The translations under genes and the position numbers were made by a program. A stretch of 64,000 nt of DNA from Candidatus Doudnabacteria bacterium RIFCSPHIGHO2_02_FULL_42_25. GTDB lineage: Bacteria; Patescibacteriota; Doudnabacteria; UBA920; O2-02-FULL-48-8. The notes under the pieces were generated by a model. That model was given only the letters and a program-made list of their open reading frames with translations. It had not been told where the DNA came from and ran no database searches. Positions 6,232 to 61,038 of the stretch are shown piece after piece (within the stretch, counting starts at the first letter, position 1; every line of letters starts with the position of its first letter). The DNA is taken from assembly GCA_001777665.1 (NCBI GenBank), contig MFEQ01000006.1:213442-277441 (forward strand). Direction: 5' to 3'.

Positions 6232-6234
6232 TTG

Positions 6235-16200: not shown

Positions 16201-16802
16201 CTAATTAAATAAAGTTCTCCCGTAAATGATGAATTGAAATAATTATCTGTATATAGCTTATCAGCTCCTTTGCGATTAATTCGTTCGATATACGGAATAT
16301 TTACAGACCAACCATAAGAAAATACACTTCCTTCATCGTTAGACTGACTGCTGTATACCAATGCAACATCTGGTTGAAGCCCGTTTCGGCCAGGAGGAAT
16401 AGTTAATGGGTATTGATAATTTAATGAACCATTCACTTCACTAACTTGTGGGAGTTTTTGGCCTGCAACAGTGTTCTTACCTGAGTCAGGACCAGGACTC
16501 GAGGCCAAAAGATTAGTTGCTTCAGGATCGGAATCTTTGCCTTTATCCTTATCTTTGATAGGTTTGGGATCTTTATTATTTTCTGAAAAATCTTTCTCAT
16601 CCTTAAGCTGCTTATCCTCATTAGTTTCTGATTTTTTATTTTGTTCGGGTTCTGGTTCCGAAGATATCTCAGATGCGGATTGATCTACTTCCTTAATGGG
16701 TTCAATCGGCAACTCGGATTCTGCAGCGAAAACGGGAGTAAAGGGCGTAATGAGAATAAAGAATGCCACCACTATCGCAACCAGACTTTTGGAGTTAGTC
16801 AT
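10233..16802 (-). CDS. RHS/YD-repeat polymorphic toxin (2189 aa) with signal peptide, FG-GAP-like DxNGDG repeats, YD repeats, RHS core and a variable C-terminal toxin domain
   Basis: Signal peptide MTNSKSLVAIVVAFFILITPF. Repeats DVNGDGLNDIL and DLNGDGLVDVI. Many YxYDxxGN(L/I) YD repeats. RHS core ...GRFISQDPVF...NPLAYIDPDGH, followed by an approx 205-aa tail. Confidence 0.85.
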   Translation of the reverse strand: MTNSKSLVAIVVAFFILITPFTPVFAAESELPIEPIKEVDQSASEISSEPEPEQNKKSETNEDKQLKDEKDFSENNKDPKPIKDKDKGKDSDPEATNLLASSPGPDSGKNTVAGQKLPQVSEVNGSLNYQYPLTIPPGRNGLQPDVALVYSSQSNDEGSVFSYGWSVNIPYIERINRKGADKLYTDNYFNSSFTGELYLISGSSWGSKVDNGEFLTYDLTDNVWTVKDKKGTAYKFGTNAAERQDSGSNIYKWMLQEVRDRNENYIKYEYTKDAGQIYPYKITYTGNGSTDGIFVIEFLKESRSDSTISYKPGFSVTTSYRIYEIQAKISDTWARKWALAYTAADNGRRYVLNTITETGQDESSNTVSLPVTDFDYQITNNNGSSNYNSNDTNWTYPVPFSEVYIADVNGDAYPDILHSYGSTKTAYLNDQDGTWTTSASYQPPIQFFDSSGVDQGVRIADVNGDGLNDILQATVGVNKAYLNTGSGWSADNSTWYSPIPFGPSSSGDSYTSQLADLNGDGLVDVIRGYDNNGTIVDDVYLNNGAGWTSVNWIVPVDLKLGVFIIDINNDGLADLLRGWQNGQTQYKEAYLGNGAGWTSNNTSWAPPMVFRSNVDEGVRPFDFNGDGLIDLSKFIGGGTPVSYYNNGYGWTQTGTNWGAVEEFVTSSNGETGTQAVDINADGMVDLIRAYSSNGVVSSTRFNNRNKADLTNKITYPSAGTTAVIYKASARYVSGSTLLNPSARINLDTVYQLTNDDKVNSTYTTSYSYESGSYYFNTSFDRQFAGFNIINKTNAAGQVTKTYYHQGNTTDSSNGEYSDHISKVGKLYRSEMKDGSSNIYLKTVNKWDKYDLGNSRNFVKLVRTTELTYDGDADHKDKTEEYTYSNTTGNLSQKIEWGEVTGSDDGAYTDTGTDKFTTDFSYVANATYYIYAYPSQETTVDQSSNKVKETKYSYDSRGNLTQQENWKAGSSYVSIQKNYDPTFGLITTDIDPRGKATSYVYDTNNLYPATVTNALNQSTSYVYDYSLGKPKQITDINSRVFQSVYDGLDRVIAEKQPDLTDPQTIVVKTEYVYTDTPGAVSSKKTDYLDNSNAVDTYTYYDGLNRPVQIRKETEDNNVYSVADTVYNNLGQVYKQSLPYFSNGFSKTSVNTNPNLLTLHTYDPMQRVVSVTNAVGTSSNIYNDQKFTVIDPKGKIKNLYKDAYGNLVKVEEFNSGNTYTTHYDYNYLGNLTKITDASGNIRNFSYDGLGRRIGSEDLHNPTDTTFGLWSYIYDDSSNLISSTNPNNQQVEYTYDDINRRLTENYIGQAGTEVTYNYDSGIDGIGRLTSVQSSGANTDYLYNPLGGLKQEAKTISSTSYQTDYNYDRQGNLLEVTNPDNSKIKYAYNQGGQLETIKRKEATDGSFVNVVSDLDYGPHGQVTYQAYANGPVTSNIYDSTKLYRLTNKNTTAANGLKLQNLSYTYDPNGNITRIVDGSDTNSSKTVDYTYDDLNRLMSTAATNVAAGQSTYGQTYSYDAIGNILTRAETIGINPTTIYTYAYDGSSGSRYANPHAVTSISDGTNTTTFSYDSNGNMITEGNKNYVYDYNNRLIQASLAGGSNTTTTFSVQSGDGNVYKNYSTWSGVHDATSGSGQSYTSTTMPVQAGKTNNSTYRIERAFLAFNTSALPDNTSIVDAKLKVYVHGKTNPDNDGDDWVTVVQGSQASPTSLVLNDYDNAGAITNPTEGIDTSERKDITNVSTNAYLTLNLNNTGKGWISKTGNTLLALREGHDVINSSYTGGKGGNQLTLRSSEYSGTAFDPVLEVTYANQTTINYAYDHEGQRVRSSNGSISTDYPTGFYNTDGTVPTKHIVSPTTQTVATVKGVGASASVYSVHTDHLTGSNVVTNNTGLQEELMDYFPFGGIRLDQKQGTFSEQRKFAGHEYDVDTGLSYMNARYYNSSIGRFISQDPVFIGLGSGQIEVLSDPQLLNSYSYARNNPLAYIDPDGHLPRSLVNAVNFLDKYNPVHYLYGESFDDIAEGLFDGDWGRVGRGVKDTTLTTANVIATSLEIGMTAGTIYTMGAGVAATKVATTGRAKEINNLIRTLDKVLDTKSKSSVIVPLRSTTKTSAFDRAAEHAIIKNHYPGLSKQEISNIAKKTFESFDIKVNIKGIKKYYYDSKNNNLFINNPKQPTLFQPKNGLEYLKDTIKKDINR
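10236..10852 (-). other. variable C-terminal toxin tip of the RHS protein (after the DPDGH motif), unknown family, glycine-zipper-like segment
   Basis: Sequence downstream of the PLAYIDPDGH cleavage/demarcation motif. Contains GMTAGTIYTMGAGVAATKVATTG. AT-richer than the body of the gene. Confidence 0.5.
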
Positions 16803-18536: not shown

Positions 18537-21500
18537 TTAAGGCTTTACTAGAGTCCAACTGTTAAGCGAGAGATTCTTAACTAAGAAGTCTCCTTGCCAG
18601 TCGGTCGTACCTGTATCGTGAGATAAGGCTGAAGCATCGCTCCAGACGAAGCTATGACCATCGCCTAATGTAGCATCTCCTGAGTTATCATTAGTCAGGA
18701 AAGCGGCAGAAGCTGCGTGAGTAGTGGTGTTCCTCTGAAGGTCAGCTAGGATGTTATCATTGGAAGCCAAAGTCCCACCGACAGTTGCTTTTACTTCATA
18801 GGTCCTAGCACCGCTTATTAGCTCTTCTACATCATCATCGGCTTTAGTTCCGATAGTGATCAATAAGTCACAAGCTGTATCTAGTTCCTCGCAGTTTGTA
18901 GCAGTATCTGTACCAGCACCGTCACCGTCAGCAGAGATAAATGTCTCAACTGCTGTGACCACTGCGCCAGTGTCAGCATTATGGATAGCAACGCTAGCCA
19001 AGGTCGGATCAGTACCAGCGCCATCAGCAGCGCCACCGGTCTTAGCTATCTCTATTAAGACTTCCTTCCAAGCTACTGCGCCGGTACCATTTGAAGATAC
19101 CGTAAACTTGGCAAGGGTCTGCGTGCCTCCGGTCAAAGTTCCAGTCGGCAATTCTACACGAGAGATCAACGGAACAGACTTGTAGGCATACATGGTATTT
19201 CCAGGTCTATCTGTACCATTAGTCGTTACTGCACCTGACGATACCGAAGTGTACTTAACACTATCCAAGGTAGCTGTGATATCGGAATCAGTTGTGCCAG
19301 CGTTTGGACCGATAGTAGCCATGACCAATTCGACGCCTAGGACGATACTACCGTTTGCCGGGACGTTCACTGAAAATCCAGTGAAGAGCATGGAAGTGGC
19401 AGCTGGCATCGTGGCCAATGTCGCTCCAGTTGACGCATTCTTCAAGACGACTTGAGAAACTGCTGTTGCGGTTGCAAGATTGACATCAACTTCGGTCAGG
19501 TTGACTGAATCATAAGTTGAAGCAACTTTGAACCTGGCAACTTCCACGGTCCCTGAATCATCAACCAACATAGAAGCTGCAGATGCAGCATCCAAGGAAG
19601 TGGCAAATGTACCAGCAACCTCGATAATTGTCTGACCATCTTTATCGGCTTCAGAATCAGCTATCCCTGACTGTACAGTTGTCCCTGTCGAAGTCAAGTC
19701 GGTTTTTACTGAATCGTTATCGGTAATGTTTGCAGCAGCACCAATGTCACCGTAAAGCTCAATAGTCAGAGAGCTATTCATCATCAAGGTGTAATTGACT
19801 GACCAATCATTATCAGCGGCGGTTGGAGTAGACTTGATAGAAGTCGTATTCGAACCGTACTTGAGATATAGGTTAGATAGATCAGATTCATTGAAGGTTG
19901 CACCAGTAACTTCATCAATGTCCAATGAGAAGGTGGTGATATTGATGTCTTCGGTTGCAGAGCCGGTTAAGGTCCAAGCACCGAGTTTGTAGTTGGTTTG
20001 AGGAGCGACTGTGGACTGGTTTGGATATGAGGCCAAAGAAGCCAAAGTCGAAGCACCCTCAGCAACTGTCAGTTGGTTTGCAGCAATGTCAGAACCTGTT
20101 GGGACATCGAATGAGCCCAATGATACTTGTCTGGTTGCGTTACTTCCATCGTTATCGATTACGTAAGCCTGAATGGTGTCAGTAGCAACCAATTCAGCGC
20201 CACCTGTCTCTTCATCATAGATATCAGAGTACAGTTCGACTGTTGCCGGTGTACCTGGATTGACGATGAAGTTGGTGGTGAAGTTGGCGGCAGTAGCAGC
20301 AGCGCCAGCGGCAACCAAGCCTTTGGTTGAGCCGACTTGTCCACCATTGACGAAGAGCTTACCGTTGCGGAGCGTATATTCGCTATCAGTACCCGAGGTG
20401 TCGATGGCGACATCGAGGTTTTCAACCTTAATTGGTTCACCATACGCGGTAAAGGTCCATTTGCCAAGTTTTACGGACGAGGCATTGTTGGTCACATTTC
20501 CTGCTGGTGAATCAGTGGTCTTGGTTACAGTCATAGTACCGTTGTTGATAGCAACACCGTCTGAATCAGCTGGGAAGGTTCCGGTTGCACCAACGTTGAC
20601 GAGGTATTGTGAATCCACGACATCAACATCGGCTTTGTTGCGGAGCGACATCTCGAGTGTTCGAGAGGAACCGCCAATAACATCAGCAATCACTTTGATA
20701 ACCGGCGAACCAGTCTTTAGTAATTTGCTGAAACCAGAGAAGGTCACATAACCGTTAGCATCAATGTTTTGAGTTGATGCAACTTGGACACCATCAACTA
20801 ACACTCGGAAGTTCTTTACGTCGCTGTTCACGATGTTGTTGATTTGGCGCAAAGCCAATCTGGACATTGTTACATCGCGGACTCCAACTGTGAAGGTTGA
20901 TTGCCAGACAGTAATGTCAGTGCCTGGATCAGAAGCACCAGCATCAGTAGGAGCGCCTACTGCTACTGTAGCTAATTCAGCAGCTGCAGAATTGTGGAGA
21001 TTACCAACGACTGGGAGTCCACCTACGGTACCCGATGAAAGGGCAACTGCAGTTAGATTAACTCCAAGTGTTTGACCTGAGTAAGATCCATCGTCAAGAT
21101 CAGCTCGAGCAGTAATGGTTCGAGAACCTGAGACTGTGAAGAGTCCAGATGGGTTAGCAAAGGTTAAATTGTTGGAAGAGAAGGTACCAGCATCAGTCAA
21201 TCGAGTCGCACCGTCAAAGAGATAGAGGTTTGAGACCATAGCATCAGTCGAAACACCAGTTCTCATCAAGGTGAGAGACGTAACTGTGCCTGAACCTGTA
21301 AACACGAAGTTAGCTAATGGAGCAATAGATTGTGAGTAATTACCCGCACCACCATCAGTTGAATCAATAATTAATGTTGATGAAGCAGGACCAGCTAAGG
21401 AAACATTAAGAGAACCTGAAACTGGAGGAGGAGTTGTTCCACCGCCGGTGCAGGCTGCGCGCATGGAAACTGCACCTTGATCGGCCATAGCCAAATCATA

Positions 21501-22109
21501 GGAGTTAGCTCCCACGACTTTTTCAAAACCAATACCGTAAGAAGTGAATACTGCGCCTGATGGGTAACCCATTCGGCCAGTAGCGGTCATGAGCCAAACG
21601 GCTCCGCCGGTGATAACTCGAGTTCCAGCTGGGTGAGCGATAGCGCTCGAATCAATGTTGGAACCGGTTGGAAGATCAGAGAAGGTGTTTACTGGAGCGA
21701 CTTGGATGTTTGAGAAACTGTATCCGAGTCCGGTAAAGACACTACCAGTTGTAAATCCTCTCTTTTGTCCGTTGGCTACGAGGTAGACCAAAGGATCGTT
21801 TGGACCCATTACGAGGGTGCCATCAGCGTAGGTCATAATTGGTCCTACTGGCAAAGCTACGTCTTCAGCTGTGGCTGCAACAACTTGTCCGAAGTTGTAA
21901 CCATGGCTCATAAAGACTTCAGCTGACGTGAATCCACGTCGTGTACCGCCGGTGATCATCCAGACGATACCGCCAGAGAGTACCAAACAACCATCGCTAT
22001 GAACAGCAGCGGAAGCGAGTTGTGGCAAGGCACCAGAGGCAGCCCAGAGTAAACTGGAAGCAGCCAAACCGGAAGCCACGGCTTTCCGTGCTTTTAAAGA
22101 TAATTGCAT
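18537..22109 (-). CDS. large secreted surface protein (1190 aa), Thr/Ser/Gly/Ala-rich with probable Ig-like/beta-rich repeats; triplicated approx 50-aa N-terminal repeat
   Basis: Signal peptide MQLSLKARKAVASGLAASSLLWAASGALPQLASA. Three repeats of the G..W..T.G.RRGF..S..VF...GY.F type. Low-complexity T/S/G/A-rich body. Confidence 0.6.
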   Translation of the reverse strand: MQLSLKARKAVASGLAASSLLWAASGALPQLASAAVHSDGCLVLSGGIVWMITGGTRRGFTSAEVFMSHGYNFGQVVAATAEDVALPVGPIMTYADGTLVMGPNDPLVYLVANGQKRGFTTGSVFTGLGYSFSNIQVAPVNTFSDLPTGSNIDSSAIAHPAGTRVITGGAVWLMTATGRMGYPSGAVFTSYGIGFEKVVGANSYDLAMADQGAVSMRAACTGGGTTPPPVSGSLNVSLAGPASSTLIIDSTDGGAGNYSQSIAPLANFVFTGSGTVTSLTLMRTGVSTDAMVSNLYLFDGATRLTDAGTFSSNNLTFANPSGLFTVSGSRTITARADLDDGSYSGQTLGVNLTAVALSSGTVGGLPVVGNLHNSAAAELATVAVGAPTDAGASDPGTDITVWQSTFTVGVRDVTMSRLALRQINNIVNSDVKNFRVLVDGVQVASTQNIDANGYVTFSGFSKLLKTGSPVIKVIADVIGGSSRTLEMSLRNKADVDVVDSQYLVNVGATGTFPADSDGVAINNGTMTVTKTTDSPAGNVTNNASSVKLGKWTFTAYGEPIKVENLDVAIDTSGTDSEYTLRNGKLFVNGGQVGSTKGLVAAGAAATAANFTTNFIVNPGTPATVELYSDIYDEETGGAELVATDTIQAYVIDNDGSNATRQVSLGSFDVPTGSDIAANQLTVAEGASTLASLASYPNQSTVAPQTNYKLGAWTLTGSATEDINITTFSLDIDEVTGATFNESDLSNLYLKYGSNTTSIKSTPTAADNDWSVNYTLMMNSSLTIELYGDIGAAANITDNDSVKTDLTSTGTTVQSGIADSEADKDGQTIIEVAGTFATSLDAASAASMLVDDSGTVEVARFKVASTYDSVNLTEVDVNLATATAVSQVVLKNASTGATLATMPAATSMLFTGFSVNVPANGSIVLGVELVMATIGPNAGTTDSDITATLDSVKYTSVSSGAVTTNGTDRPGNTMYAYKSVPLISRVELPTGTLTGGTQTLAKFTVSSNGTGAVAWKEVLIEIAKTGGAADGAGTDPTLASVAIHNADTGAVVTAVETFISADGDGAGTDTATNCEELDTACDLLITIGTKADDDVEELISGARTYEVKATVGGTLASNDNILADLQRNTTTHAASAAFLTNDNSGDATLGDGHSFVWSDASALSHDTGTTDWQGDFLVKNLSLNSWTLVKP

Positions 22110-23940: not shown

Positions 23941-24066
23941 AGCGAGGATTAAATTTTTGGACGCTTTGCGTATTTCTTCAGAAATCGCAACGCGAGTAAA
24001 AATCTACTTTCAAGTACATAACAAACTGCAGATTTTTAAGTTCACAAAAATTTCAATCCGAGCGTT
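23941..24066. repeat. approx 126-bp direct repeat copy A (about 90% identical to 32206..32331), immediately 3' of tRNA-Pro; contains imperfect palindrome TTGCGTATTTC-N3-GAAATCGCAA
   Basis: Long near-identical block, with a 60-bp core ggacgctttgcgtatttc...caaactgcagattttta that is identical in both copies. Confidence 0.8.
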
Positions 24067-24225: not shown

Positions 24226-24256
24226 AAAAATGTGTAATTACACATTTTTTACGACT
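24226..24256. repeat. palindrome AAAAATGTGTAATTACACATTTTT plus TACGACT; downstream copy of the 24-bp direct repeat flanking the PaaX_C-like gene (other copy 24948..24971)
   Basis: Perfect 24-bp palindrome. The 24-mer tgtaattacacattttttacgact is identical at both gene ends. Confidence 0.8.
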
Positions 24257-24932
24257 AGATAATACTCTTATCTTTGAAGAATTGGTTGAGCTTTTCTTCA
24301 TCATCAGCATCTAATTTGGCAGCTTCGGCTACTGTCACAAAGTTTTCGATTTCATAATACACTGCGACGAACTCAATCTGATCAGTTGGTTTATAGGGAT
24401 AAACCCAAACTGTCCTTTGCAGCGGATAAAAATTCATTAACTTAAGCTTTTCTCGAAATAAATCTGCCCGTCTCCGATAAGGATTTGAAGGAATATCAGC
24501 CAGTACAAACCACCAATGCTTGCGCAAACGCGAGGTTTGCGGGATAGTTAGATTTTCAAAATTTAATCGTCTTACTTTATCCTCTCCTTTTTTCGTAATC
24601 TTCATAACATAGTCCTCCCCTTCTCTCATCAATTGAATATAACCATATCTTTTCAAATAATAAAAAGACTTAACAATATCCTTTTGACGTTTTTCAAATC
24701 GCTGTTTCCTGTCATAGCCGCTATAACCATAACGTTGGATTTTTCCTAACGCACTTAGTAGATTAGGGGCGATGACTGCTATAGCTACTGTTCCGGCGAG
24801 AATACCTGTCGCGAGCACAACCTCTGCCGCAGTTTTCAACATCGCTACTTGCTGATCGCTAAGCTTGGGTTTCTTGGAGGCAGTGCTCTTTCGTATCAAC
24901 TGCGATATATTTATATCCTGCTTAATTCGCAT
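24255..24932 (-). CDS. membrane-anchored PaaX_C/Cas2-fold domain protein (paralog 1 of 3), putative regulator
   Basis: N-terminal TM helix, basic wHTH-like middle region, C-terminal RKHWWFVLADIPS...FREKL...FYPLQRTVWVYPY matching the PaaX C-terminal/Cas2-like signature. 60% identical to 56669..57346. Confidence 0.5.
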   Translation of the reverse strand: MRIKQDINISQLIRKSTASKKPKLSDQQVAMLKTAAEVVLATGILAGTVAIAVIAPNLLSALGKIQRYGYSGYDRKQRFEKRQKDIVKSFYYLKRYGYIQLMREGEDYVMKITKKGEDKVRRLNFENLTIPQTSRLRKHWWFVLADIPSNPYRRRADLFREKLKLMNFYPLQRTVWVYPYKPTDQIEFVAVYYEIENFVTVAEAAKLDADDEEKLNQFFKDKSII

Positions 24933-27661: not shown

Positions 27662-27859
27662 TTACGCTTTCGCTTTAGTCTTAGCTTTTATCTTAAGAAC
27701 CTGGCGGCCTTTGTAGAATCCACAGTTGCTGCAGGCTTCGTGCGGAAGTGCTGGAAAACTGCAATTCTTACATACTGAAAGATTGCTTTGGGAGAGGAAA
27801 TCGTGAGCCCGTCTTTGATTTCGTCCTGATCTAGTTTTATGCTTTTTAGGTACTGCCAC
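27662..27859 (-). CDS. rpmF: 50S ribosomal protein L32
   Basis: [19 protein letters not shown]...[25 protein letters not shown] is the classic L32 zinc-ribbon. Confidence 0.85.
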
Positions 27860-27907
27860 GGCTTAGTATTCCTTAAATAATTAGTGCTACAAAACTTTAA
27901 CATAAAT

Positions 27908-27953
27908 TTTATAAAAAAACAAGAGGGTGGATGCGACTGCGTCGCACCCACCC
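27908..27953 (-). terminator. strong GC hairpin terminator at the left edge of the GC-rich block
   Basis: GGGTGGATGCGAC-tgc-GTCGCACCCACCC followed on the minus strand by a TCTTGTTTTTTTAT tract. Confidence 0.6.
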
Positions 27954-27970
27954 GGCAGATTTGTCTGTGA

Positions 27971-28318
27971 CTAGGTGTTCCCCAGCCCAAGACGATTCCC
28001 CCAAGATGTCACCGCTTTCCATGCGATGTACTCCCCGGCGATGATGATCAGAAACCCCAGCGCGTACCACTCCGAGGACCCACGCCAGTCACTCCCATAA
28101 GCGTAGGCGACTGTGCCGGAAGTGACCAGAGACTGTACCATCCAGGTACCGATCGCCCACCATCCGTTGCCGTTGGCATGAAGCCTCACGACAACGAGAA
28201 CCATGCCGAGCACCATGACCGCACCGAGCCAAACCATGACTCCTCCCTTCTTCACCTCATACCAGTTTCCGCAATTCCTTCCACAGTATCTGTTGGCGAA
28301 CAGGAGATCCATTATCAC
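27971..28318 (-). CDS. hypothetical membrane protein (GC-rich block)
   Basis: 115-aa ORF with hydrophobic helices. Codon usage matches the GC-rich block. Confidence 0.4.
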   Translation of the reverse strand: MIMDLLFANRYCGRNCGNWYEVKKGGVMVWLGAVMVLGMVLVVVRLHANGNGWWAIGTWMVQSLVTSGTVAYAYGSDWRGSSEWYALGFLIIIAGEYIAWKAVTSWGNRLGLGNT

Positions 28319-28509
28319 AGTAAAGCAATAATAGATTCGCCAACAGATAACGAGAAACGAATTTTCGGAACAAGGGCGAGAGTGGTTGTCGTAGACGGGC
28401 GTCTACTCACAAACCACTCATGCTTCTCTTGTCTGCATCAACCCTCCTAAGAGTTGTTGCTAGCGGGCCTGGGAGCTCGCCGAGGTGGGAACGTGAGTGA
28501 GGTGAGACT

Positions 28510-28704
28510 TTATTTAACGATCCGTTCGATGATCTGCTCTCCATAGAGAGCTACCGCGATTGCAGCCGCGACGCCGAGGGTCAGAACGACCCACTGGATG
28601 ATCTCTGAGACCGGGATACCGCGGATCTTACTCCTCGAGATCGGGATATGTCCGTCTTTCCCGGTGAAGACCATGGGCTGGCCGTACCATCTCACACGGA
28701 ACAT
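28510..28704 (-). CDS. small hypothetical membrane protein (GC-rich block)
   Basis: 64 aa with one TM helix, tightly followed by the next ORF. Confidence 0.3.
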   Translation of the reverse strand: MFRVRWYGQPMVFTGKDGHIPISRSKIRGIPVSEIIQWVVLTLGVAAAIAVALYGEQIIERIVK

Positions 28705-28706
28705 AA

Positions 28707-28889
28707 CTATCCTTTCGCTGCCGAGTTACGCCTGAGATATCTTACAGGATTTCCCCTGTAGATATCAACCCTGGTACCCTGCTGCCTTTTCCACGCATCG
28801 TATTGACGCGTGTGTCTGTGGCCGACCATGAACACCAGGAAAGCCACGGCGTTTACGATGACGAGCACAATCACGCCCCAAACGATCAT
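28707..28889 (-). CDS. small hypothetical membrane protein (GC-rich block)
   Basis: 60 aa with a TM helix, in a 3-bp spaced tandem with 28510..28704. Confidence 0.3.
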   Translation of the reverse strand: MIVWGVIVLVIVNAVAFLVFMVGHRHTRQYDAWKRQQGTRVDIYRGNPVRYLRRNSAAKG

Positions 28890-29013
28890 ATACCGCCTCT
28901 TTTCAAAAAACTTGCACCCCGCTACTAAATTCTAACTGTTAACTTACAACTGTCAACTTAAAACTCAGAAGCGGGGAGGAGAGGCAAGCGTTAGCATCAC
29001 CTCTCCGTTATCA

Positions 29014-29274
29014 CTACCTCTGCGCTGAGACCGAAAAATCTTCGTCGTAGGTCCCGGCAACAGCATTACGACAGAGGAAGCACTCCGACTCTGCCTCGTC
29101 ATGAACACAGGCCAGCTCGTACTTCACCGTGTCGTTGATGGCGCCAAGCATAGGCGCATCTTCGAAACGGAAATATAGACCGTCGAGTATGACATCACCG
29201 ACGACGCCGACTCGGCTGCCTAGTTCCTGGCGGAACTCTGTTTTCGCGATGACCCGATCCTTCGGATTCATCAC
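29014..29274 (-). CDS. hypothetical protein (GC-rich block)
   Basis: 86-aa ORF. Its 4-bp overlap with the upstream ORF suggests coupling. Confidence 0.35.
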   Translation of the reverse strand: MMNPKDRVIAKTEFRQELGSRVGVVGDVILDGLYFRFEDAPMLGAINDTVKYELACVHDEAESECFLCRNAVAGTYDEDFSVSAQR

Positions 29275-29606
29275 TCGCTCCTTGTGCTAAGGAGCAGTCC
29301 TGTGTCCTCGCCCTGATAGTGCTTCTTCACGCTCTTCCATACGGCACGCGTGTAGCGCTCGACGAGGAGCCGCAGAACAGGCCCGGATAGAAGATCCTTG
29401 TGGAGCGAGACGAATATTTCCTGGTCGGTCGGTTTGAAGTATGTCACCAGGTACATGTCGATGCGCTTTTCAAGATTATCGGCGATGCGCCGAGCCTCTT
29501 CGTTTCGAAAAAACGCAGCTTCCGCGGGTCCAATTGCCATTTCACTCCTCCTACCCTTCGGTGCCGATCGACTGATCGACTCCCTTCTGCTGAACTTTAT
29601 TCGCAA
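29271..29606 (-). CDS. hypothetical protein (GC-rich block); start possibly at the internal Met (MAIGPAEAAFF)
   Basis: 111-aa ORF. The competing plus-strand ORFs look like GC-frame artefacts. Confidence 0.35.
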   Translation of the reverse strand: MRIKFSRRESISRSAPKGRRSEMAIGPAEAAFFRNEEARRIADNLEKRIDMYLVTYFKPTDQEIFVSLHKDLLSGPVLRLLVERYTRAVWKSVKKHYQGEDTGLLLSTRSE

Positions 29607-29753
29607 TCCTGATGAAAATCAGGATCTCTATCTTGAGACCCTGAATCAATCCTGAATCGAGTTCAGGACAAGGTTCAGGGTTGCGATACTGTCCAAGAGA
29701 AGAGAGATGAGAGGTCGCACGTGGGCAACCTCTCTTCTCCAACGAACGTCCTC

Positions 29754-30116
29754 CTACTTCTGCGGGTACGTCTTGCTCGAATCCCAGTGGATATCCTCGG
29801 GCTCGAGCGGGACCGACTCCTCGATTGGCGGCTCGATCAGGTATTCATCATCGAAGCCCGTGATCGATTCGCGGTTGAGAACCAGTGACGGGTTGCTGAT
29901 GAATTCGCCGAGACGCTGTGCGCCGCACGAGAAATCGCAAGCCCCGCGATCCTCTTCACCCACCGGTTCCGCCCAGACGACTTGTCCGTCCTCGCAGACA
30001 ATCCTGGCCAGCGAATCCATATGGGCGACACCATCACACCCCCGTGAACGAAGGATTTGAGAACCGTCAGGCTCGGTCCGATCGACGGTTTCCGAGTAAA
30101 TCCGAAACCTTCTCAT
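29754..30116 (-). CDS. hypothetical protein (GC-rich block), acidic
   Basis: 120-aa ORF with plausible composition. Confidence 0.35.
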   Translation of the reverse strand: MRRFRIYSETVDRTEPDGSQILRSRGCDGVAHMDSLARIVCEDGQVVWAEPVGEEDRGACDFSCGAQRLGEFISNPSLVLNRESITGFDDEYLIEPPIEESVPLEPEDIHWDSSKTYPQK

Positions 30117-30503
30117 ATACTCACCTCACATGCGCCATACAGACGCAAAACGAAACCTAGCAACACTTTCGCTTCCATTCCAGGACGAGCCCAAAACAGA
30201 TGGTTCCACCGATGATCAAGCTCAATCCGGCGGCTGGCGAATAGAAAAAATTTGTAGCGGGTATCCCGGTCGAAAGACGAAGAACTACAAACCTCGGGAG
30301 ACACTCTCCCTTCTGAAACTTTCGAATTTTTTTCAAAAACTTTAGAAGAGAAGGATGTATTTGCCTGGGCACATCCTTCGAAGCCTGACGCAGTCTGTGT
30401 GAGGGCGCTGCGTGACCCTTTTGAGATTAACTCTCTAGTCCTCCTTGGACTCAACGGATTTCCGCCGCCGTCGGTTTTATTTGTTTGTGGGACTAATTTC
30501 GGC

Positions 30504-31118
30504 TTAATTTGCCTGGTCCGTCCCTTGACCACTAGCCTCTTTCGGCTCGGTTACCGGCATGCGGAAGATCTCACCGGGCTTGAGTCGGACCACCACAAGC
30601 TGGGTCCTGACCTTGCGCAACTGACTCGGTTCCAAAATCATGTCTCCTAGCAGGAGATGAAACCGCTCGTCCTCCGGATAAACGTCTGGCGCCAACTCCC
30701 GCAGTGAATGCAGATACTCGAGGCTGGTGATGACCGGCGCGAACCACTGCTGCTTGAGGAAATCCTGTTGCGAGACTGTAGCGATCATGTCGATCTTCTC
30801 GTCACAGTACAGATCGATCGCCTTGGAGAACACATCACCCCAAGAGGTCGATTCTCCTAGATCAGTCATTTCGGGGTTCGGATCTTCTCGACCTCGATAG
30901 ACGTCCATGCAGTAGTTGGCGCAGTCTCGATTGCCATCCCAACTGCCACCGCAGTTCGAACACGTATCGAGGCCGATGATTCGCCAGTTTTGCGGGTACT
31001 TCTGCTTCTTGATTTCCGCCTCTGCGGCCTTGTGTCCACTAACGTGGATCTGACGCTTCGTCACGCAATTCCAAGCGTAGACTGACTCGTCATTCCACCA
31101 ATCATTACTATAACGCAT
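30504..31118 (-). CDS. hypothetical Cys-rich protein (GC-rich block)
   Basis: 204 aa with Cys clusters (CSNCGGSWDGNRDCANYC). Preceded by an AT-rich promoter-like segment at 31140..31262. Confidence 0.4.
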   Translation of the reverse strand: MRYSNDWWNDESVYAWNCVTKRQIHVSGHKAAEAEIKKQKYPQNWRIIGLDTCSNCGGSWDGNRDCANYCMDVYRGREDPNPEMTDLGESTSWGDVFSKAIDLYCDEKIDMIATVSQQDFLKQQWFAPVITSLEYLHSLRELAPDVYPEDERFHLLLGDMILEPSQLRKVRTQLVVVRLKPGEIFRMPVTEPKEASGQGTDQAN

Positions 31119-31139
31119 CTCACACCTCCGCGCTTTGCG

Positions 31140-31262
31140 CTAGAGACCGAAGAACTTGATTGTTCCCGGAACTCTGAATACTTAGTGAACTTTACGGTCG
31201 TATAAATCAATCCGTGTTACAACAATTAAATATTCAGAATCCTGAAAACAATTTGGGAAAGG
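31140..31262. repeat. AT-rich promoter-like segment, paralogous to 32085..32197 (shared taaatattcagaatcctg[a/g]a[a/t]acaat and ctgaa[t/c]acttag blocks)
   Basis: Direct sequence similarity. Each segment sits upstream of a minus-strand ORF run inside the GC-rich block. Confidence 0.5.
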
Positions 31263-31447
31263 GCGCGAGGGATGAAGATATTCTATCACCCCTCGGCTTG
31301 TCGTTAGAAGCGGACGATGAATCGGATTCGCTTCTTGCGAAGATCCCGCTTACGCGGTTTCTTCTTCGCGGGTTTCAACTGGATGATCATGACTCCGAAG
31401 CGATCCTTGGCTTCGAGGTCCGCGGGCGTCTCGCGTCGCGTCGACAT

Positions 31448-31648
31448 CTAGTTCCGGCCGTACTTGTTGTCGAAGTTCATCGGCGACGAACCGTTGAGCT
31501 GTGTCGCGCTCGCCGGCAACACCATCGCGTTGATCATCGCATGAGTGCGCACGGCGGCCTGATGTTCGTTGGTCCGATCGATCAGGATTACCTCGCCGTT
31601 GAACTTGCCAATTGCGACGTGCTTCGAGTCTACTAATACCTGAACCAC
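31448..31648 (-). CDS. small hypothetical protein (GC-rich block)
   Basis: 66 aa. Its composition is more protein-like than the overlapping Arg-rich alternative frames. Confidence 0.25.
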   Translation of the reverse strand: MVQVLVDSKHVAIGKFNGEVILIDRTNEHQAAVRTHAMINAMVLPASATQLNGSSPMNFDNKYGRN

Positions 31649-31856
31649 TCTCGTACCCTCCTGTAAAGTAGGTGCGTGGCTGTTGATGTTGAGTTGGAAA
31701 GCGGCCTTGGGGTGACCGCAGGGTGGAAACTTTGGCAGGGGTGTATGTTTGTCTTTCCTCTGGATCCATTTTCACACGAGGTGTAATAGATCCAAGGGAG
31801 AGAGGGCAATCGCAGAGCGATCGCCCGGGGAAAGGAAGTTGTCGCGAACAGAACGT

Positions 31857-32042
31857 TCAGCGAGCGAGGACGTAGACGATGTGGTCCGGATCCTGGGGAT
31901 CCGTGTAGTTGCCGAGCACCGTCTGACGCTCTTCGTCGGTGAGGTTGTCACCGAAGCACCAGTCTCCAATAGCACGGAGCGCCGAAGCGATACGAGCAAT
32001 CAAGTTCCTCATCATACTCCTCCTGAGAAGTTGTGGAAACAA
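31857..32042 (-). CDS. small hypothetical protein (GC-rich block)
   Basis: 61 aa, downstream of the second AT-rich promoter-like segment at 32085..32197. Confidence 0.25.
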   Translation of the reverse strand: MFPQLLRRSMMRNLIARIASALRAIGDWCFGDNLTDEERQTVLGNYTDPQDPDHIVYVLAR

Positions 32043-32205
32043 CAGCGGTCGTCTTGCACCATGCGTTGAGGACTCTTATTTCCGCTGCAACAACGGTAGG
32101 ACCATTGCCTCCACAATTCTGAACACTTAGGTAAACTCTAGAGCAACTAAATTTCTCTGTATTACGGTCTAAATATTCAGAATCCTGGATACAATATTAT
32201 CTTTG

Positions 32206-32331
32206 AGCGAGGAACAAATTTTAGGACGCTTTGCGTATTTCATAAGAAATCGCAACGCGAGTAAAAATCTACTTTCAAGTACATAACAAACTGCAGATTT
32301 TTACGTTCACTAAAATTTCGTTCCGAGCGTT
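32206..32331. repeat. approx 126-bp direct repeat copy B (pair of 23941..24066)
   Basis: About 90% identity over approx 126 bp with copy A. Confidence 0.8.
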
Positions 32332-32345
32332 ACTTCCACAATTCT

Positions 32346-32434
32346 GGGTTTTATCTGATTGCTTTGAGGGCAAATGTTGATTTCCCTGCTTAATCAAGAT
32401 AAACCCGTCTCGACTCGGTCGAGCCGAGGCGGAC
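32346..32434. ncRNA. highly structured element: long nested hairpin (GGGTTTTATC...GATAAACCC) plus a second GC hairpin; candidate small RNA or structured DNA site
   Basis: Nested complementary arms seen directly. Flanked by the inverted repeats CCACAATTCTGGG and CCCAGAATTCTGG. Confidence 0.25.
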
Positions 32435-32647
32435 CCCCAGAATTCTGGAAACAAAAATAGCTCCGTTCTGGAGCTAGCTTAAAATTGGTACGTGTTACAT
32501 GTTACGTGCTACGTGACCATTTTTTGCCTCGTCTCCTGAACTTGGCACAAACATAGATTTTTAATGAACCGGTAAGTATACACCCAAACGCCTATTTTGT
32601 CAATAGCTAACGCCTGATTATTGGCTAATATAAGCCAAAAAGACATG

Positions 32648-32689
32648 AAAAAATCGAGCAAAAAACCACCCCGGACATTGATCCGGGGT
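32648..32689 (-). terminator. rho-independent terminator of the groESL operon
   Basis: ACCCCGGA-cattga-TCCGGGGT hairpin followed on the minus strand by TGGTTTTTTGCTCGATTTTTT. Confidence 0.7.
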
Positions 32690-32776
32690 CCATTTCCGTG
32701 GATCCCGGATCGCCCTTCGTGGCGTCCGGGATGGTTGCTTGTTCTTTGTTACCTGCCTGCCGGCAGGCAGGCGTGA

Positions 32777-34529
<1,753 letters not shown>

Positions 34530-39490: not shown

Positions 39491-40042
39491 TCAGCCCAGA
39501 TTGAATTTTTTAACCAGGTCAGAAAAAATATCAATTTTTCCAGCTGTTATTACTCTAACGAACGGTCTGATCTCATAAATCTCTTTTAGAAAGTCAATTT
39601 CATCCTCGCAAGGATAAGGACAAACCCAGACGCTTTTTTGAATCATTTTAAAGCCAAGCTCAATTAATTTTTCTCTAAATACTTTTCTGTTTAGTTTAAA
39701 TTCTTCTGGAATATCAAAAACGACTATTCGCCATTGTTTATCCCAACGCTTGGGTTTTTGAATTTTCATTTCTTCTAAATTAAAACTAACTAACTTTTCT
39801 TTTCCTTCTTTTGTTAAAGTAAATTCAGTTTTGCCGTTTTTGTAGGCTACTCCGATATAACCTCTCTTCTTTAAATTACTAAATGATCTTTTTATTTGCT
39901 GGCGATTATAGGACTTTAATCGTTTATACTGACCAAGGGCGACAAAAAGACCCGGTGCTGTCGCTGCCACTACAAATATTCCCGCTACTCCTATAAAGGC
40001 TAAAATACTTTTCGCAATTATTGATTTGTTGCTCTTTTTCAT
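39491..40042 (-). CDS. membrane-anchored PaaX_C/Cas2-fold domain protein (paralog 2 of 3)
   Basis: N-terminal TM. C-terminal KQWRIVVFDIPEEFKLNRKVFREKLIELGFKMIQKSVWVCPY. Confidence 0.5.
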   Translation of the reverse strand: MKKSNKSIIAKSILAFIGVAGIFVVAATAPGLFVALGQYKRLKSYNRQQIKRSFSNLKKRGYIGVAYKNGKTEFTLTKEGKEKLVSFNLEEMKIQKPKRWDKQWRIVVFDIPEEFKLNRKVFREKLIELGFKMIQKSVWVCPYPCEDEIDFLKEIYEIRPFVRVITAGKIDIFSDLVKKFNLG

Positions 40043-54923: not shown

Positions 54924-55062
54924 CGCTAACTCCCCCTTGAAAGGGCCGGCAATGCCGGCGGAAATTTTTAAGTAACGTGTAACCTATATTACTCCTTTGC
55001 CCTTTTTTTGGCAATAAAAAAAGGTTAGCCGACCCGATGGGTCAACTAACCATAATCTCCCG

Positions 55063-58511: not shown

Positions 58512-58598
58512 AATCTGCCTCTCTTCCTCTGTTATTCCTCTTTGCCCGAGTTAAAGAACTTCATAGCAGTATAAGCAAAAAAACTTTTATTGCCAAAT

Positions 58599-58636
58599 TA
58601 AAAAAAGCGGTGGAGCGTCGCAGGGACGCACCACCG
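58599..58636 (-). terminator. GC-hairpin terminator
   Basis: A7 plus CGGTGGAGCGTCGCAGGGACGCACCACCG. Confidence 0.6.
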
Positions 58637-58648
58637 TTTGGTTGTCGG

Positions 58649-60085: not shown

Positions 60086-60171
60086 TGCCTCCGTCCTATT
60101 CTAAAGGTGCCATCAGCACCTTCTGTTTGGAATTCGTGGTAAGTGCTTTAGAGTACTATAGATGAATTCAA

Positions 60172-60203
60172 TAAATAAAAAAAGGGTGGTCCGAGGGGAC
60201 CAC
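60172..60203 (-). terminator. GC-hairpin terminator after upp
   Basis: A-run plus GGTGGTCC-gagg-GGACCACC. Confidence 0.6.
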
Positions 60204-60208
60204 CAGGT

Positions 60209-60871: not shown

Positions 60872-61038
60872 AAAGTCAGGCACGGCCCCTCCCAGGAATC
60901 GTGTGACCCTATAGTCTACCAAAGCAAGGCATTTTGAAGCAAATAAAAAAGACGCTTGCTTGCGCAAACGTCACGGTCGCTTGGCGTTGATCATTACGTC
61001 GGTCGCCTTACTGGACATACGGTCGACTCAATGCCGTG

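What the first reader, a model, noticed from the sequence alone, without database searches (positions are those of the whole stretch)
27933..32100. 4.2-kb GC-rich block of compact, unidirectional small orphan genes (phage/plasmid-like insertion)
Composition jumps from roughly 35-40% GC to roughly 55-60% GC between a strong hairpin terminator (27908..27953) and about 32.1 kb. Inside are at least 8 short minus-strand ORFs with no recognisable homologs. Several are membrane peptides and one is Cys-rich, and some have overlapping stop/start codons. Two AT-rich segments (31140..31262 and 32085..32197) resemble each other and look like internal promoters. An approx 390-bp poorly coding stretch (30120..30500) carries hairpins, e.g. 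GAAGGATGT-N12-ACATCCTTC. This looks like a remnant or cargo region of a mobile element from a high-GC donor.
Basis: seen in the sequence. Interest (0 to 1): 0.65.

Follow-up and report, generated by a model that had tools for sequence, protein, structure and literature searches.

The report
Hypervariable small-gene locus with RNA hairpins
The GC-rich block is real, but it is not a one-off phage or plasmid insertion: it is one version of a fast-changing slot just downstream of groEL in Doudnabacteria (CPR bacteria), where mostly unrelated small genes, about half of them for membrane proteins, are swapped between lineages around a conserved set of long, previously undescribed hairpin elements.

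Summary
Window 27.95-32.1 kb is 52-55% GC against roughly 44% in the flanks. It holds 10 minus-strand ORFs with coding-like GC3 (0.64-0.79; host genes 0.28-0.45) and no match in Pfam, PHROGs, PADLOC, phage or plasmid collections. The source is a Candidatus Doudnabacteria MAG, and the block is 99.8-100% identical in six independent assemblies.

The groEL-to-rpmF interval is GC-rich and variable in at least 7 further related versions (2.9 to >6.7 kb). Of 67 cargo ORFs, only four small protein families recur. The conserved parts are noncoding: a groEL-proximal spacer, a terminal hairpin, a 3' module, and 95-135-nt hairpins (A, B, C). These hairpins are much more stable on the transcribed strand, covary (13 compensatory pairs in type C, 0/500 shuffles), occur nowhere else in the 64 kb, and sit upstream of the ORFs, apparently heading transcription units. 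No integrase, Rep, att repeats or phage hallmark genes are present.

The only recurrent protein, o204, has no known fold. One homolog sits, still GC-rich, on an AT-rich integrase + Rep contig.

Best reading: a lineage-specific accessory-gene hotspot whose cargo comes from a GC-richer gene pool and whose hairpins act as RNA leaders. An integron-like, hairpin-mediated cassette exchange is not excluded.

The parts
27925..27953 (-). Intrinsic terminator that closes the variable block, just upstream of the rpmF (L32) promoter region
   Evidence: 13-bp stem, 9 GC pairs, T-run
27971..28237 (-). 88-aa predicted membrane protein. The listed ORF runs to 28318, but the likely start is the ATG at 28237, behind a GGGAGGAG Shine-Dalgarno
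   Evidence: GC3 0.71; 88-aa gene call in public assemblies; sequence read; TM by hydropathy
28265..28370 (-). Terminal hairpin, acting as leader of the last gene. Conserved in L008 and L019, partly in L011
   Evidence: RNA MFE -48.7 kcal/mol (z -8.8) on the sense strand against -29.9 on the antisense; 75-78% nt identity to L008 and L019 at the equivalent position
28510..28704 (-). 64-aa protein with a C-terminal TM segment
   Evidence: GC3 0.71
28707..28889 (-). 60-aa protein with an N-terminal TM segment
   Evidence: GC3 0.64
28929..28956 (-). Sigma-70-like promoter (TTGACA-16-TAGAAT) for the membrane-protein operon
   Evidence: 11 of 12 consensus matches
29014..29271 (-). 85-aa soluble orphan; its start codon overlaps the stop of the upstream gene
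   Evidence: GC3 0.64; gene calls
29271..29540 (-). 89-aa soluble orphan
   Evidence: GC3 0.64; gene calls
29619..29734 (-). Two terminator-like hairpins (29644-29619 and 29734-29709) between transcription units
29754..30116 (-). 120-aa soluble orphan with 5 Cys
   Evidence: GC3 0.69; no relatives on viral contigs; single-sequence AF2 model unusable at pLDDT 43
30117..30351 (-). Noncoding stretch unique to this genome. The ORFs listed here are not coding-like
   Evidence: GC3 0.46-0.50 for the overlapping ORFs; no match in relatives
30352..30503 (-). Conserved structured noncoding '3' module', including the GAAGGATGT-N12-ACATCCTTC hairpin. It also occurs in L019 without the 204-aa gene
   Evidence: Aligned with L008 and L019 3026-3157; sense-strand fold z -2.85 against -0.83 antisense
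30504..31118 (-). o204: a 204-aa protein with an N-terminal Cys4 motif and a C-terminal unannotated domain of about 110 aa. It is the only cargo protein of this window shared with other lineages
31156..31259 (-). Hairpin A (IR element, loop type 2), upstream of o204 and probably part of its 5' leader
   Evidence: 73.9 bits with model R1; MFE -30.5 sense against -24.0 antisense
31282..31290 (-). Candidate extended -10 (TGATAGAAT) about 20 nt upstream of hairpin A. A similar TGATAGTTT precedes the same hairpin type in L011
   Evidence: Read from the sequences; inference, not flagged by the consensus scan
31304..31447 (-). 47-aa very basic orphan
   Evidence: GC3 0.75
31448..31648 (-). 66-aa orphan
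   Evidence: GC3 0.79. The overlapping 141-aa ORF called in public annotation is in the wrong frame (GC3 0.40, GC1 0.73)
31857..32015 (-). 51-52-aa orphan behind an AGGAGGAG Shine-Dalgarno
   Evidence: GC3 0.68
32101..32202 (-). Hairpin B (IR element, loop type 1), heading the first cargo unit
   Evidence: 108.1 bits; MFE -35.8 (z -5.6) sense against -19.7 antisense; 84-89% nt identity to copies in L008, L009, L011 and L014
32206..32331 (-). 126-bp duplicate (93% identical) of the tRNA-Pro/SpoIIM intergenic segment 23941-24066, specific to this genome
32326..32462 (-). Hairpin C (about 135 nt): the first and best-conserved hairpin of the locus, with arms CCAGAATTCTGG / CCCAGAATTGTGG
   Evidence: 72 nt are 97% identical to L014; MFE -52.4, z -6.3; 31 pairs, 13 compensatory, 0/500 shuffles
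32458..32603 (-). Promoter-like site (TTGACA-17-TATACT, 32603-32575) plus a terminator (32476-32458), bounding a conserved unit of about 110 nt (candidate small RNA or leader)
   Evidence: 69-79% nt conservation in relatives, with the terminator conserved in position but not in sequence
32668..32689 (-). groEL terminator, marking the groEL-side edge of the variable interval

Best explanation
The block is this genome's version of a lineage-specific hypervariable accessory-gene slot, located immediately downstream of groESL in Candidatus Doudnabacteria.

Shown: the slot has conserved ends and a small set of conserved noncoding modules, namely the groEL-proximal spacer, hairpin C, IR hairpins, a 3' module and a terminal hairpin. 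Between these modules lie short, mostly unrelated, GC3-rich genes, about half of them predicted membrane proteins. These genes differ almost completely between related lineages.

Inferred:
1. The cargo was acquired horizontally from a GC-richer gene pool and is exchanged between lineages by recombination. The conserved flanks and repeated hairpin arms serve as the shared sequence. ComEC is encoded nearby, so uptake of foreign DNA is plausible.
2. The long hairpins act mainly as RNA. Each sits shortly after a probable promoter and before a conserved AAGTTCTTT motif, an optional short GC hairpin and a strong Shine-Dalgarno. They would therefore form standard 5' leaders that stabilise or process (RNase III-type substrate) the mRNAs of whatever cargo follows.
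3. The proteins most likely serve envelope-level conflict or host-interaction functions, given their small size, membrane location and rapid turnover. This last step is the weakest.
For: Same slot, different content:
- The groEL-rpmF/nusB interval is 49-52% GC in WIN, L008, L009, L011 (=L013) and L014 (=L015, L018); L016 and L019 are likewise GC-rich by 500-nt profile. Interval length runs from 2.9 to >6.7 kb, with flanking proteins 80-88% identical.
- Only four small protein families recur among 67 candidate cargo ORFs, and 36 of the 67 have a predicted TM segment.

Noncoding modules are conserved better than the coding sequence:
- IR element 84-89% and hairpin C up to 97% nt identity, against about 70% for the o204 gene.
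- The modules occur in a different order in different lineages, and the 3' module occurs without o204 in L019.

The hairpins are real and strand-specific:
- Sense/antisense RNA MFE is -35.8/-19.7, -30.5/-24.0, -34.0/-20.3, -35.4/-18.6 and -48.7/-29.9 kcal/mol. The asymmetry shrinks under DNA parameters.
- 93-94% of cells are paired, against 32-56% when partners are slid.
- Hairpin C has 13 compensatory pairs against 4.9 +/- 1.6 in shuffles, 0/500.

Locus restriction: model R1 finds nothing elsewhere in the 64-kb window, and all sense hits lie in this interval. Where a collection-scan hit has visible flanks, it lies at this locus.

Leader architecture: read from the sequences.

Foreign composition of the cargo: GC3 0.64-0.79 against a host median of 0.38. 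The o204 homolog keeps GC3 0.72 on an AT-rich integrase + Rep contig whose own genes have GC3 0.38-0.40.

Not a mobile-element body: no integrase, Rep or phage genes.
Against: - No transcript data exist, so the promoters, 5' ends and RNA role of the hairpins are inferred.
- The arms keep a conserved sequence (CCACnATTCTGAA / TTCAGAnTTGTGG) across hairpin types with unrelated loops. A purely structural RNA stem would not need that, so it hints at a sequence-specific protein partner, possibly acting on DNA.
- The homology between the o204 units of WIN and L008 starts inside a hairpin 3' arm, which would also fit site-specific crossover.
- The GC-rich donor pool is unidentified.
- The orphan status of 9 of the 10 ORFs was tested only against Pfam, PHROGs, PADLOC, phage and plasmid records and the related loci. 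The one large-database attempt on them failed technically.
- No function is demonstrated for any protein.
- An 'empty' ancestral site was not found.
Confidence: 0.55

Rival explanations
1. Integron-like cassette platform. The hairpins are recombination sites that fold on one DNA strand, as attC sites do. An unlinked or still unrecognised recombinase inserts, excises and shuffles hairpin-bounded gene cassettes at this fixed site.
For: - The genes are unidirectional, compact, small and mostly orphan, and their content is hypervariable at a fixed chromosomal site.
- The repeated imperfect palindromes of 95-135 nt fold strand-specifically.
- The arm sequence is conserved across hairpin types whose loops are unrelated.
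- The same cargo is paired with different hairpin types in different lineages, with the homology boundary inside the 3' arm. This holds for o204 (hairpin A in WIN, type C in L008 and L009) and for the L008 124-aa / L019 137-aa pair.
- A ccrB-type recombinase is reported as highly expressed in Doudnabacteria (PMC9938205).
Against: - No tyrosine or serine recombinase lies within +/-10 kb, and no relative of L007's serine integrase or Rep is found in the window or the related loci. None is among the 25 families listed for the rest of the window (10 of 35 families were not shown).
- The stems are nearly perfect, without the unpaired central spacer or extrahelical bases of attC, and there are no RYYYAAC/GTTRRRY boxes (reading).
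- There are only 1-3 IR copies per 3-6 kb, so the 'cassettes' would be multigene.
- The hairpins sit in a 5' leader context with a Shine-Dalgarno.
- The strand asymmetry is much larger under RNA than DNA parameters.
Confidence: 0.17
2. Decayed prophage, satellite or integrated plasmid. A mobile element from a high-GC donor integrated downstream of groEL in an ancestor, then lost its mobility genes. The lineages differ through decay and secondary insertions.
For: - The cargo has a foreign composition.
- The small genes are compact and unidirectional with overlapping stop/start codons, and small TM proteins could be holin-, coat- or exclusion-like.
- An o204 homolog lies on a contig with a serine integrase and RC Rep, and another lies near a tyrosine integrase.
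- L008 carries a DUF5715 cargo protein with an N-terminal hydrophobic segment.
Against: - There are no hallmark genes in any of the 8 versions by tblastn against L007's integrase and Rep. The window ORFs have no significant PHROGs hit and the 10 largest cargo proteins of other versions almost no Pfam hit.
- No att-type direct repeats flank the block.
- Nothing matches in phage, plasmid or IMG/VR collections at DNA or protein level.
- Decay of one ancestral element cannot explain almost complete non-homology of cargo alongside 84-97% conservation of the noncoding modules.
Confidence: 0.13
3. Array of type I toxin-antitoxin-like or small-toxin/immunity modules. The small hydrophobic proteins are toxins or immunity factors, and the long structured leaders control their translation, possibly together with antisense RNAs.
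For: - Many cargo proteins are 40-100 aa with one or two TM segments.
- The 5' regions are highly structured.
- Such loci are known to be repeated and variable (general knowledge of hok/sok, ibs/sib and aapA/isoA).
Against: - In this window, hairpins A and B precede soluble proteins (o204 and the 52-aa ORF), not TM peptides.
- The hairpins do not overlap the Shine-Dalgarno or start codon.
- No antisense promoter was detected by the consensus scan.
- There were no PADLOC or Pfam toxin hits.
Confidence: 0.08
4. Artefact: chimeric assembly or mis-binned GC-rich DNA joined into an AT-rich contig.
For: Abrupt compositional change.
Against: - The identical 20.6-kb context appears in NCBI, JGI and ENA assemblies from different samples, at 99.8-100% identity and with continuous flanks.
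- The same architecture is found in several related genomes.
Confidence: 0.01

Closest known systems
Sedentary chromosomal integron cassette arrays and CALINs (clusters of attC sites lacking an integrase)
   Same: A fixed chromosomal site. Unidirectional, compact arrays of small genes that are mostly of unknown function. Repeated imperfect-palindromic elements of about 60-140 nt, similar to each other within a lineage and folding strand-specifically. Content that differs sharply between close relatives, and cargo composition that differs from the host.
   Different: No IntI or other recombinase nearby. No R''/L''-L'/R' box organisation, GTTRRRY core, unpaired central spacer or extrahelical bases. 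Few elements per array, with several genes between them. The elements sit in a 5' leader context, and their strand bias rests on G.U pairs, which points to RNA.
Co-transcribed intergenic palindromic repeats (ERIC/IRU, Neisseria Correia/NEMIS elements, REP/BIME, pneumococcal RUP/BOX)
   Same: Imperfect palindromes of about 100 nt in intergenic regions, transcribed with neighbouring genes. The hairpin forms in an orientation-dependent way and affects mRNA processing or stability (RNase III/E). From general knowledge of these families.
   Different: Those repeats are dispersed in tens to hundreds of copies per genome and behave as MITEs. Here all detected copies lie in one locus, in one orientation, and are conserved at that locus across lineages.
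Phage leader and processing RNAs (T7 RNase III sites between early genes; HK022 put antiterminator RNAs)
   Same: Several related sense-strand RNA structures placed near the start of, or between, transcription units in a compact unidirectional cluster of small genes that contains internal terminators.
   Different: There are no phage genes here. The structures are single stems of 23-30 bp with large loops, not the T7 bubble hairpins or the two-stem put fold. No match to any Rfam family.
Integration hotspots / regions of genome plasticity between core genes (e.g. defence-island hotspots)
   Same: Conserved core flanks (groESL; rpmF-nusB), with variable accessory cargo of foreign composition.
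   Different: No integrase, no tRNA target and no recognisable defence genes. The cargo is GC-richer than the host rather than AT-richer. Conserved internal RNA-like modules are not a feature of ordinary hotspots.

Membership tests
Integron / CALIN | Integron integrase (IntI tyrosine recombinase) next to the array (not required for a CALIN) | tested here: not met
   No recombinase domain among the called genes within +/-10 kb. None among the 25 families listed for the rest of the window (10 of 35 families were not shown). No tblastn hit to L007's serine integrase.
Integron / CALIN | attC architecture: R''-L''...L'-R' boxes with RYYYAAC/GTTRRRY, an unpaired central spacer and extrahelical bases | tested here: not met
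   By reading the alignments and consensus folds. The stems are contiguous (23 pairs with one bulge), and the arm cores are CCACnATTCTGAA / TTCAGAnTTGTGG. The IntegronFinder attC model could not be run.
Integron / CALIN | One attC per cassette, with cassettes mostly single promoterless ORFs | tested here: not met
   1-3 IR hairpins per 3-6 kb, several ORFs between hairpins, and internal promoters and terminators.
Prophage or prophage remnant | Phage hallmark genes (capsid, terminase, portal, integrase) or PHROG membership | tested here: not met
   No PHROGs hit below E 0.01. No tblastn or blastn hit to 50,697 phage records. No relatives on IMG/VR contigs for o204, o120 or the hairpins.
Prophage / integrative element | Flanking direct repeats (attL/attR), often at a tRNA gene | tested here: not met
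   No direct repeat brackets 27.95-32.1 kb. The only long repeat (126 bp; 23941-24066 and 32206-32331) encloses nusB and rpmF, so it cannot mark element ends.
Plasmid / ICE remnant | Replication initiator, relaxase or partition genes | tested here: not met
   No Pfam hits. No hit to L007's RC Rep. No match in 72,556 plasmid records.
MITE / REP-type dispersed repeat | Many copies dispersed through the genome, with terminal inverted repeats and target-site duplications | tested here: not met
   Inverted arms are present, but model R1 finds copies only in this interval of the 64-kb window. Scans of public genomes and metagenomes gave one hit-bearing stretch per contig, and where flanks are visible they are at this locus. 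The rest of the source genome was not available.
Known RNA families (Rfam 15) | Score at or above a family's gathering threshold | tested here: not met
   In the whole window only two tRNAs reach the threshold. In 27850-32800 the best E-values are 3.4-4, for eukaryotic miRNA and snoRNA models, which is chance level.
Known anti-phage defence systems (PADLOC) | Match to a defence-protein model | tested here: not met
   Best E-values 0.014 and 0.039, not significant.
Structured cis-acting RNA (generic) | Strand-specific stability and covariation that preserves base pairs | tested here: met
   Sense/antisense MFE gaps of 6-19 kcal/mol for the IR and terminal hairpins. Hairpin C has 13 compensatory pairs, 0/500 shuffles, and at most 6 when partners are slid. 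For the IR element the covariation score is also 0/500, but compensatory pairs are modest, at 4 (39/500). Transcription itself is not testable with these tools.

The most novel reading that the evidence does not exclude
Doudnabacteria carry a previously unrecognised gene-cassette platform next to groESL. A family of long hairpins with a conserved arm sequence (CCACnATTCTGAA...TTCAGAnTTGTGG) acts both as the exchange point for capturing and shuffling foreign small-protein genes and as a ready-made expression leader. It would be a functional analogue of integrons that evolved independently in the Candidate Phyla Radiation, using a different site and an unknown recombinase.
Probability: 0.17. Interest if true: 0.8.

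Novelty: new variant of a known kind. Interest (0 to 1): 0.55.

Why it matters
CPR (Patescibacteria) genomes are small and are usually described as streamlined, so a dedicated slot that keeps turning over foreign small membrane-protein genes is unexpected. It points to a function under strong diversifying pressure, such as host attachment, phage exclusion or competition, in organisms that cannot yet be cultured alone.

The conserved parts of the locus are noncoding. It contains at least two covariation-supported hairpin families absent from Rfam, and these outlast the genes they accompany. That makes them concrete targets for metatranscriptomics and for RNA-motif curation.

The direction of the compositional anomaly is also unusual: GC-rich cargo sits in an AT-rich genome, and the same holds on an AT-rich mobile element. 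This is the reverse of typical genomic islands and raises the question of which gene pool feeds these bacteria.

If the hairpin arms prove to be recombination sites, this would be an independent invention of cassette capture.

Tried and rejected
- rRNA or another known structured RNA as the cause of the GC-rich, poorly coding look. Rejected: Rfam at gathering threshold and at E<=5 gave nothing relevant.
- Palindromic motif as a dispersed operator or uptake sequence. Rejected: it is enriched only in this locus.
- IR elements as sigma-70 promoters. No consensus promoter lies inside them, so they are better read as hairpins downstream of promoters.
- Concatenating nine ORFs for a single big-database homology search. 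It returned nothing, not even the ORFs' own entries, so it is uninformative and is not counted as evidence of orphan status.
- Single-sequence AF2 of o120. pLDDT 43, discarded.
- Protein-family scan of GTDB genomes with the o204 alignment. No confirmed hit.
- Genomic context of the standalone C-domain family. Mostly hypothetical neighbours. A radical-SAM/SPASM gene about 2 kb away in L020 and one weak radical-SAM fusion (P0016, below Pfam's threshold) are only a lead towards peptide modification.
- The 126-bp repeat as att sites. Rejected because it encloses nusB and rpmF.
- Literature search for a described equivalent (Doudnabacteria islands, integrons in Patescibacteria, CPR hypervariable loci). 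Nothing equivalent found.

Full report
**Source and observation.** The window comes from a Candidatus Doudnabacteria (CPR/Patescibacteria) metagenome-assembled genome, GCA_001780055.1, contig MFFA01000003.1. The compositional step is real. One-kb windows give 52-55% GC for 28-32 kb against 43.6% and 44.1% on either side. This is the most deviant 4-kb stretch of the window by tetranucleotide distance (z 2.34).

The terminator at 27953-27925 is confirmed. Ten minus-strand ORFs show a clear coding signature (GC3 0.64-0.79 with GC2 0.34-0.47). The ORFs in 30113-30532, and the 141-aa ORF that some public annotations call at 31350-31775, do not. None of the ten ORFs has a significant Pfam, PHROGs or PADLOC match. 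Neither the DNA nor the concatenated proteins match the phage or plasmid collections.

The block is not an assembly artefact. Six independent assemblies from NCBI, JGI and ENA agree over 12-20 kb at 99.8-100% identity.

**Composition in context.** The block is not the only GC-rich island. purC, purB, upp and neighbouring genes at 54-56.5 kb and 57.5-61.5 kb have GC3 0.60-0.71. Their tetranucleotide profiles correlate at r 0.72-0.73 with the block, whereas the block correlates at -0.20 with the AT-rich part of the window. Seven of the 43 long ORFs have GC3 >= 0.58, against a median of 0.38. The genome is therefore a compositional mosaic, and the block belongs to its GC-rich fraction.

**Comparative anatomy: the key result.** The largest ORF (o204, 30504-31118) has only four full-length homologs in 5.8 billion proteins.
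- Two lie in related Doudnabacteria-like contigs (L008, L009), again directly downstream of groEL.
- One lies on a 4.3-kb contig with a large serine integrase and a rolling-circle Rep (L007).
- One lies near a tyrosine integrase.

Scans for the conserved noncoding element brought in further relatives (L011=L013, L014=L015=L018, L016, L017, L019). Wherever flanks are visible, they are groES-groEL on one side and rpmF-nusB (or nusB-HU) on the other, at 80-88% amino-acid identity.

In all these versions the interval is GC-rich and 2.9 to >6.7 kb long; it is 49-52% GC where computed. It is filled with small GC3-rich ORFs, of which 36 of 67 have a predicted TM segment. Only four small protein families recur among them: the o204 family, two cross-lineage pairs, and one duplicate within L011. 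A fifth apparent cluster is just the translated hairpin C. The ten largest cargo proteins from other lineages have almost no Pfam domains: one DUF5715 hit and one sub-threshold zf-HC2 hit. A single ancestral insertion followed by decay cannot explain this pattern. The slot is conserved and the cargo turns over.

**Conserved noncoding modules.** What the versions share is noncoding:
- **(i) The groEL-proximal spacer.** It carries a canonical promoter-like site (32603-32575) and a second terminator (32476-32458).
- **(ii) Hairpin C (32326-32462).** A 72-nt core is 97% identical to L014, while groEL proteins are only 81% identical.
- **(iii) One to three IR hairpins per version.** These are A (31156-31259) and B (32101-32202) in the window.
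- **(iv) A module of about 150 nt after o204 (30352-30503).** L019 carries it without o204.
- **(v) A terminal hairpin (28265-28370)** before the last gene.

The order of the modules differs between lineages. The same cargo can follow different hairpin types: o204 follows hairpin A in the window and type C in L008 and L009. In that case the homology begins inside the 3' arm.

**Nature of the hairpins.** As RNA, the hairpins fold much better on the transcribed strand:

| Hairpin | Sense (kcal/mol) | Antisense (kcal/mol) |
|---|---|---|
| B (window) | -35.8 | -19.7 |
| A (window) | -30.5 | -24.0 |
| L008 copy | -34.0 | -20.3 |
| L011 copy | -35.4 | -18.6 |
| Terminal (window) | -48.7 | -29.9 |

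Sense z-scores run from -4.7 to -8.8. The stems contain several G.U pairs that would be C.A mismatches on the other strand. Under DNA parameters the asymmetry largely disappears.

Across 9 IR copies, 94% of cells are paired, against 33-51% with slid partners. There are 4 compensatory pairs, and U.G, U.A and C.G alternate at the same positions. Across 8 type-C copies, 93% of cells are paired, with 13 compensatory pairs against 4.9 +/- 1.6 in shuffles (0/500) and at most 6 when slid.

A covariance model finds sense copies only in this interval and nowhere else in the 64-kb window. No Rfam family matches. The hairpins are absent from IMG/VR contigs.

Downstream of most IR copies comes a motif close to AAGTTCTTT and then a Shine-Dalgarno and the start codon, in several copies (WIN_A, L008_2, L011_3) with a short GCGC-loop-GCGC hairpin and a strong GGAGGTG. 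Plausible -10 elements, such as TGATAGAAT at about 31290-31282, lie some 20-25 nt upstream of several copies; this is read and is an inference. The simplest reading is a portable 5' leader. However, the conserved arm sequence across hairpin types with unrelated loops suggests that a sequence-specific partner also exists.

**The o204 protein.** The alignment shows an invariant CxxC...CxxxC motif in the N-terminal half. The C-terminal half is an unannotated domain of about 110 aa, found alone or fused in 27 representative clusters at E <= 1e-3. The AlphaFold model is confident (pLDDT 82.8). It has no convincing structural neighbour in PDB or BFVD and no PDB sequence relative.

On L007 the homolog keeps GC3 0.72 while the integrase and Rep have 0.38-0.40, and it has its own canonical promoter and no hairpin. 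This cargo gene is therefore GC-rich whatever vehicle carries it. That argues for a GC-rich gene pool rather than a GC-rich mobile element. Its function remains unknown. A radical-SAM fusion (below Pfam's threshold) and a radical-SAM/SPASM neighbour of the standalone domain are only leads.

**Interpretation.** I conclude that the finding is a genuine and unusual locus, but not the phage or plasmid remnant proposed. The best explanation (confidence 0.55) is a Doudnabacteria-specific hypervariable accessory-gene slot downstream of groESL. Its foreign, GC-richer small-protein genes are replaced by recombination, and its long hairpins serve chiefly as RNA leaders.

The rivals, in order:
- an integron-like system in which the hairpin arms are recombination sites (0.17);
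- a decayed integrated element (0.13);
- small-toxin/immunity arrays (0.08);
- an assembly artefact (0.01).

The membership tests for integrons, prophages, plasmids, MITEs, Rfam families and known defence systems were all run and not met. Only the generic criteria for a structured cis-acting RNA are met.

**Limits.**
- There are no expression data.
- The rest of the source genome and complete relatives could not be scanned.
- Nine of the ten ORFs were not searched individually in the largest protein database. The one attempt failed technically.
- The donor pool and the protein functions are unknown.

Noticed in passing
window 23941-24066 and 32206-32331: A 126-bp direct repeat, 93% identical. 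One copy starts 4 nt after the 3' end of tRNA-Pro and runs to just upstream of the SpoIIM gene. The other sits between hairpin C and hairpin B. It is specific to this genome and encloses nusB and rpmF, so it is probably a duplicated upstream or regulatory segment rather than att sites.
   Followed up: partly
window 32458-32603 (minus strand): A canonical promoter-like site (TTGACA-17-TATACT) followed about 100 nt later by an intrinsic terminator, between the groEL terminator and hairpin C. The stretch is 69-79% conserved in relatives, with the terminator conserved in position but not in sequence. It is a candidate small RNA or leader and has no Rfam match.
   Followed up: partly
window 53940-56496 and 57477-61527: Further GC-rich islands: purC, purB, a 344-aa ORF, a 478-aa ORF without Pfam hits, upp and a 162-aa ORF. 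Their GC3 is 0.60-0.71 and their tetranucleotide profile resembles that of the block. They are likely horizontally acquired nucleotide-metabolism genes.
   Followed up: partly
L007 1-4296 (JGI Ga0254889_1001541): A fragment of an AT-rich integrative element with a large serine integrase, a rolling-circle Rep (PF23343), a 290-aa unknown protein and a divergently oriented GC-rich o204 homolog at the contig end.
   Followed up: partly
L016 (DATJFX010000008.1) and L019 (CAYOPE010000001.1): MAG contigs labelled Methylomirabilota and Saccharibacteria carry genes 80-84% identical to this Doudnabacteria genome (GroEL and NusB in L016; L32 and NusB in L019), plus the locus-specific hairpins. The contigs are probably mis-binned or mislabelled.
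   Followed up: partly
L019 3026-3157: The structured module that follows o204 in the window (30352-30485) and in L008 occurs in L019 after an unrelated membrane-protein ORF. It is therefore an independent noncoding module, not just the 3' UTR of o204.
   Followed up: partly
L016 2-634 versus 5087-6973: In this relative nusB-HU is inverted relative to groES-groEL, so the variable block stays attached to the groEL side when the far flank is rearranged.
   Followed up: no
L005 versus window 33278-33353: All 24 mismatches between the ENA contig k141_1236630 and the window fall within 76 nt of groEL, close to the start of that contig. This may be an assembly-end artefact or a short recombination tract.
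   Followed up: no
window 10233-16802 and 18537-22109: A 2189-aa ORF (not scanned against Pfam) and a 1190-aa ORF with no Pfam domain (GC3 0.41, in a somewhat GC-richer stretch). They may be large surface proteins typical of CPR genomes.
   Followed up: no
window 24255-24932 and 39491-40042: Two paralogous proteins with a PaaX central Cas2-like domain (PF20803; weak PF09827) flank the wider region on both sides. The arrangement is conserved in relatives.
   Followed up: no
L020 6000-9000 (GCA_020850635.1): The standalone homolog of the o204 C-terminal domain sits in another CPR-like genome within a locally GC-richer stretch of hypothetical genes, about 2 kb from a radical-SAM/SPASM gene.
   Followed up: partly
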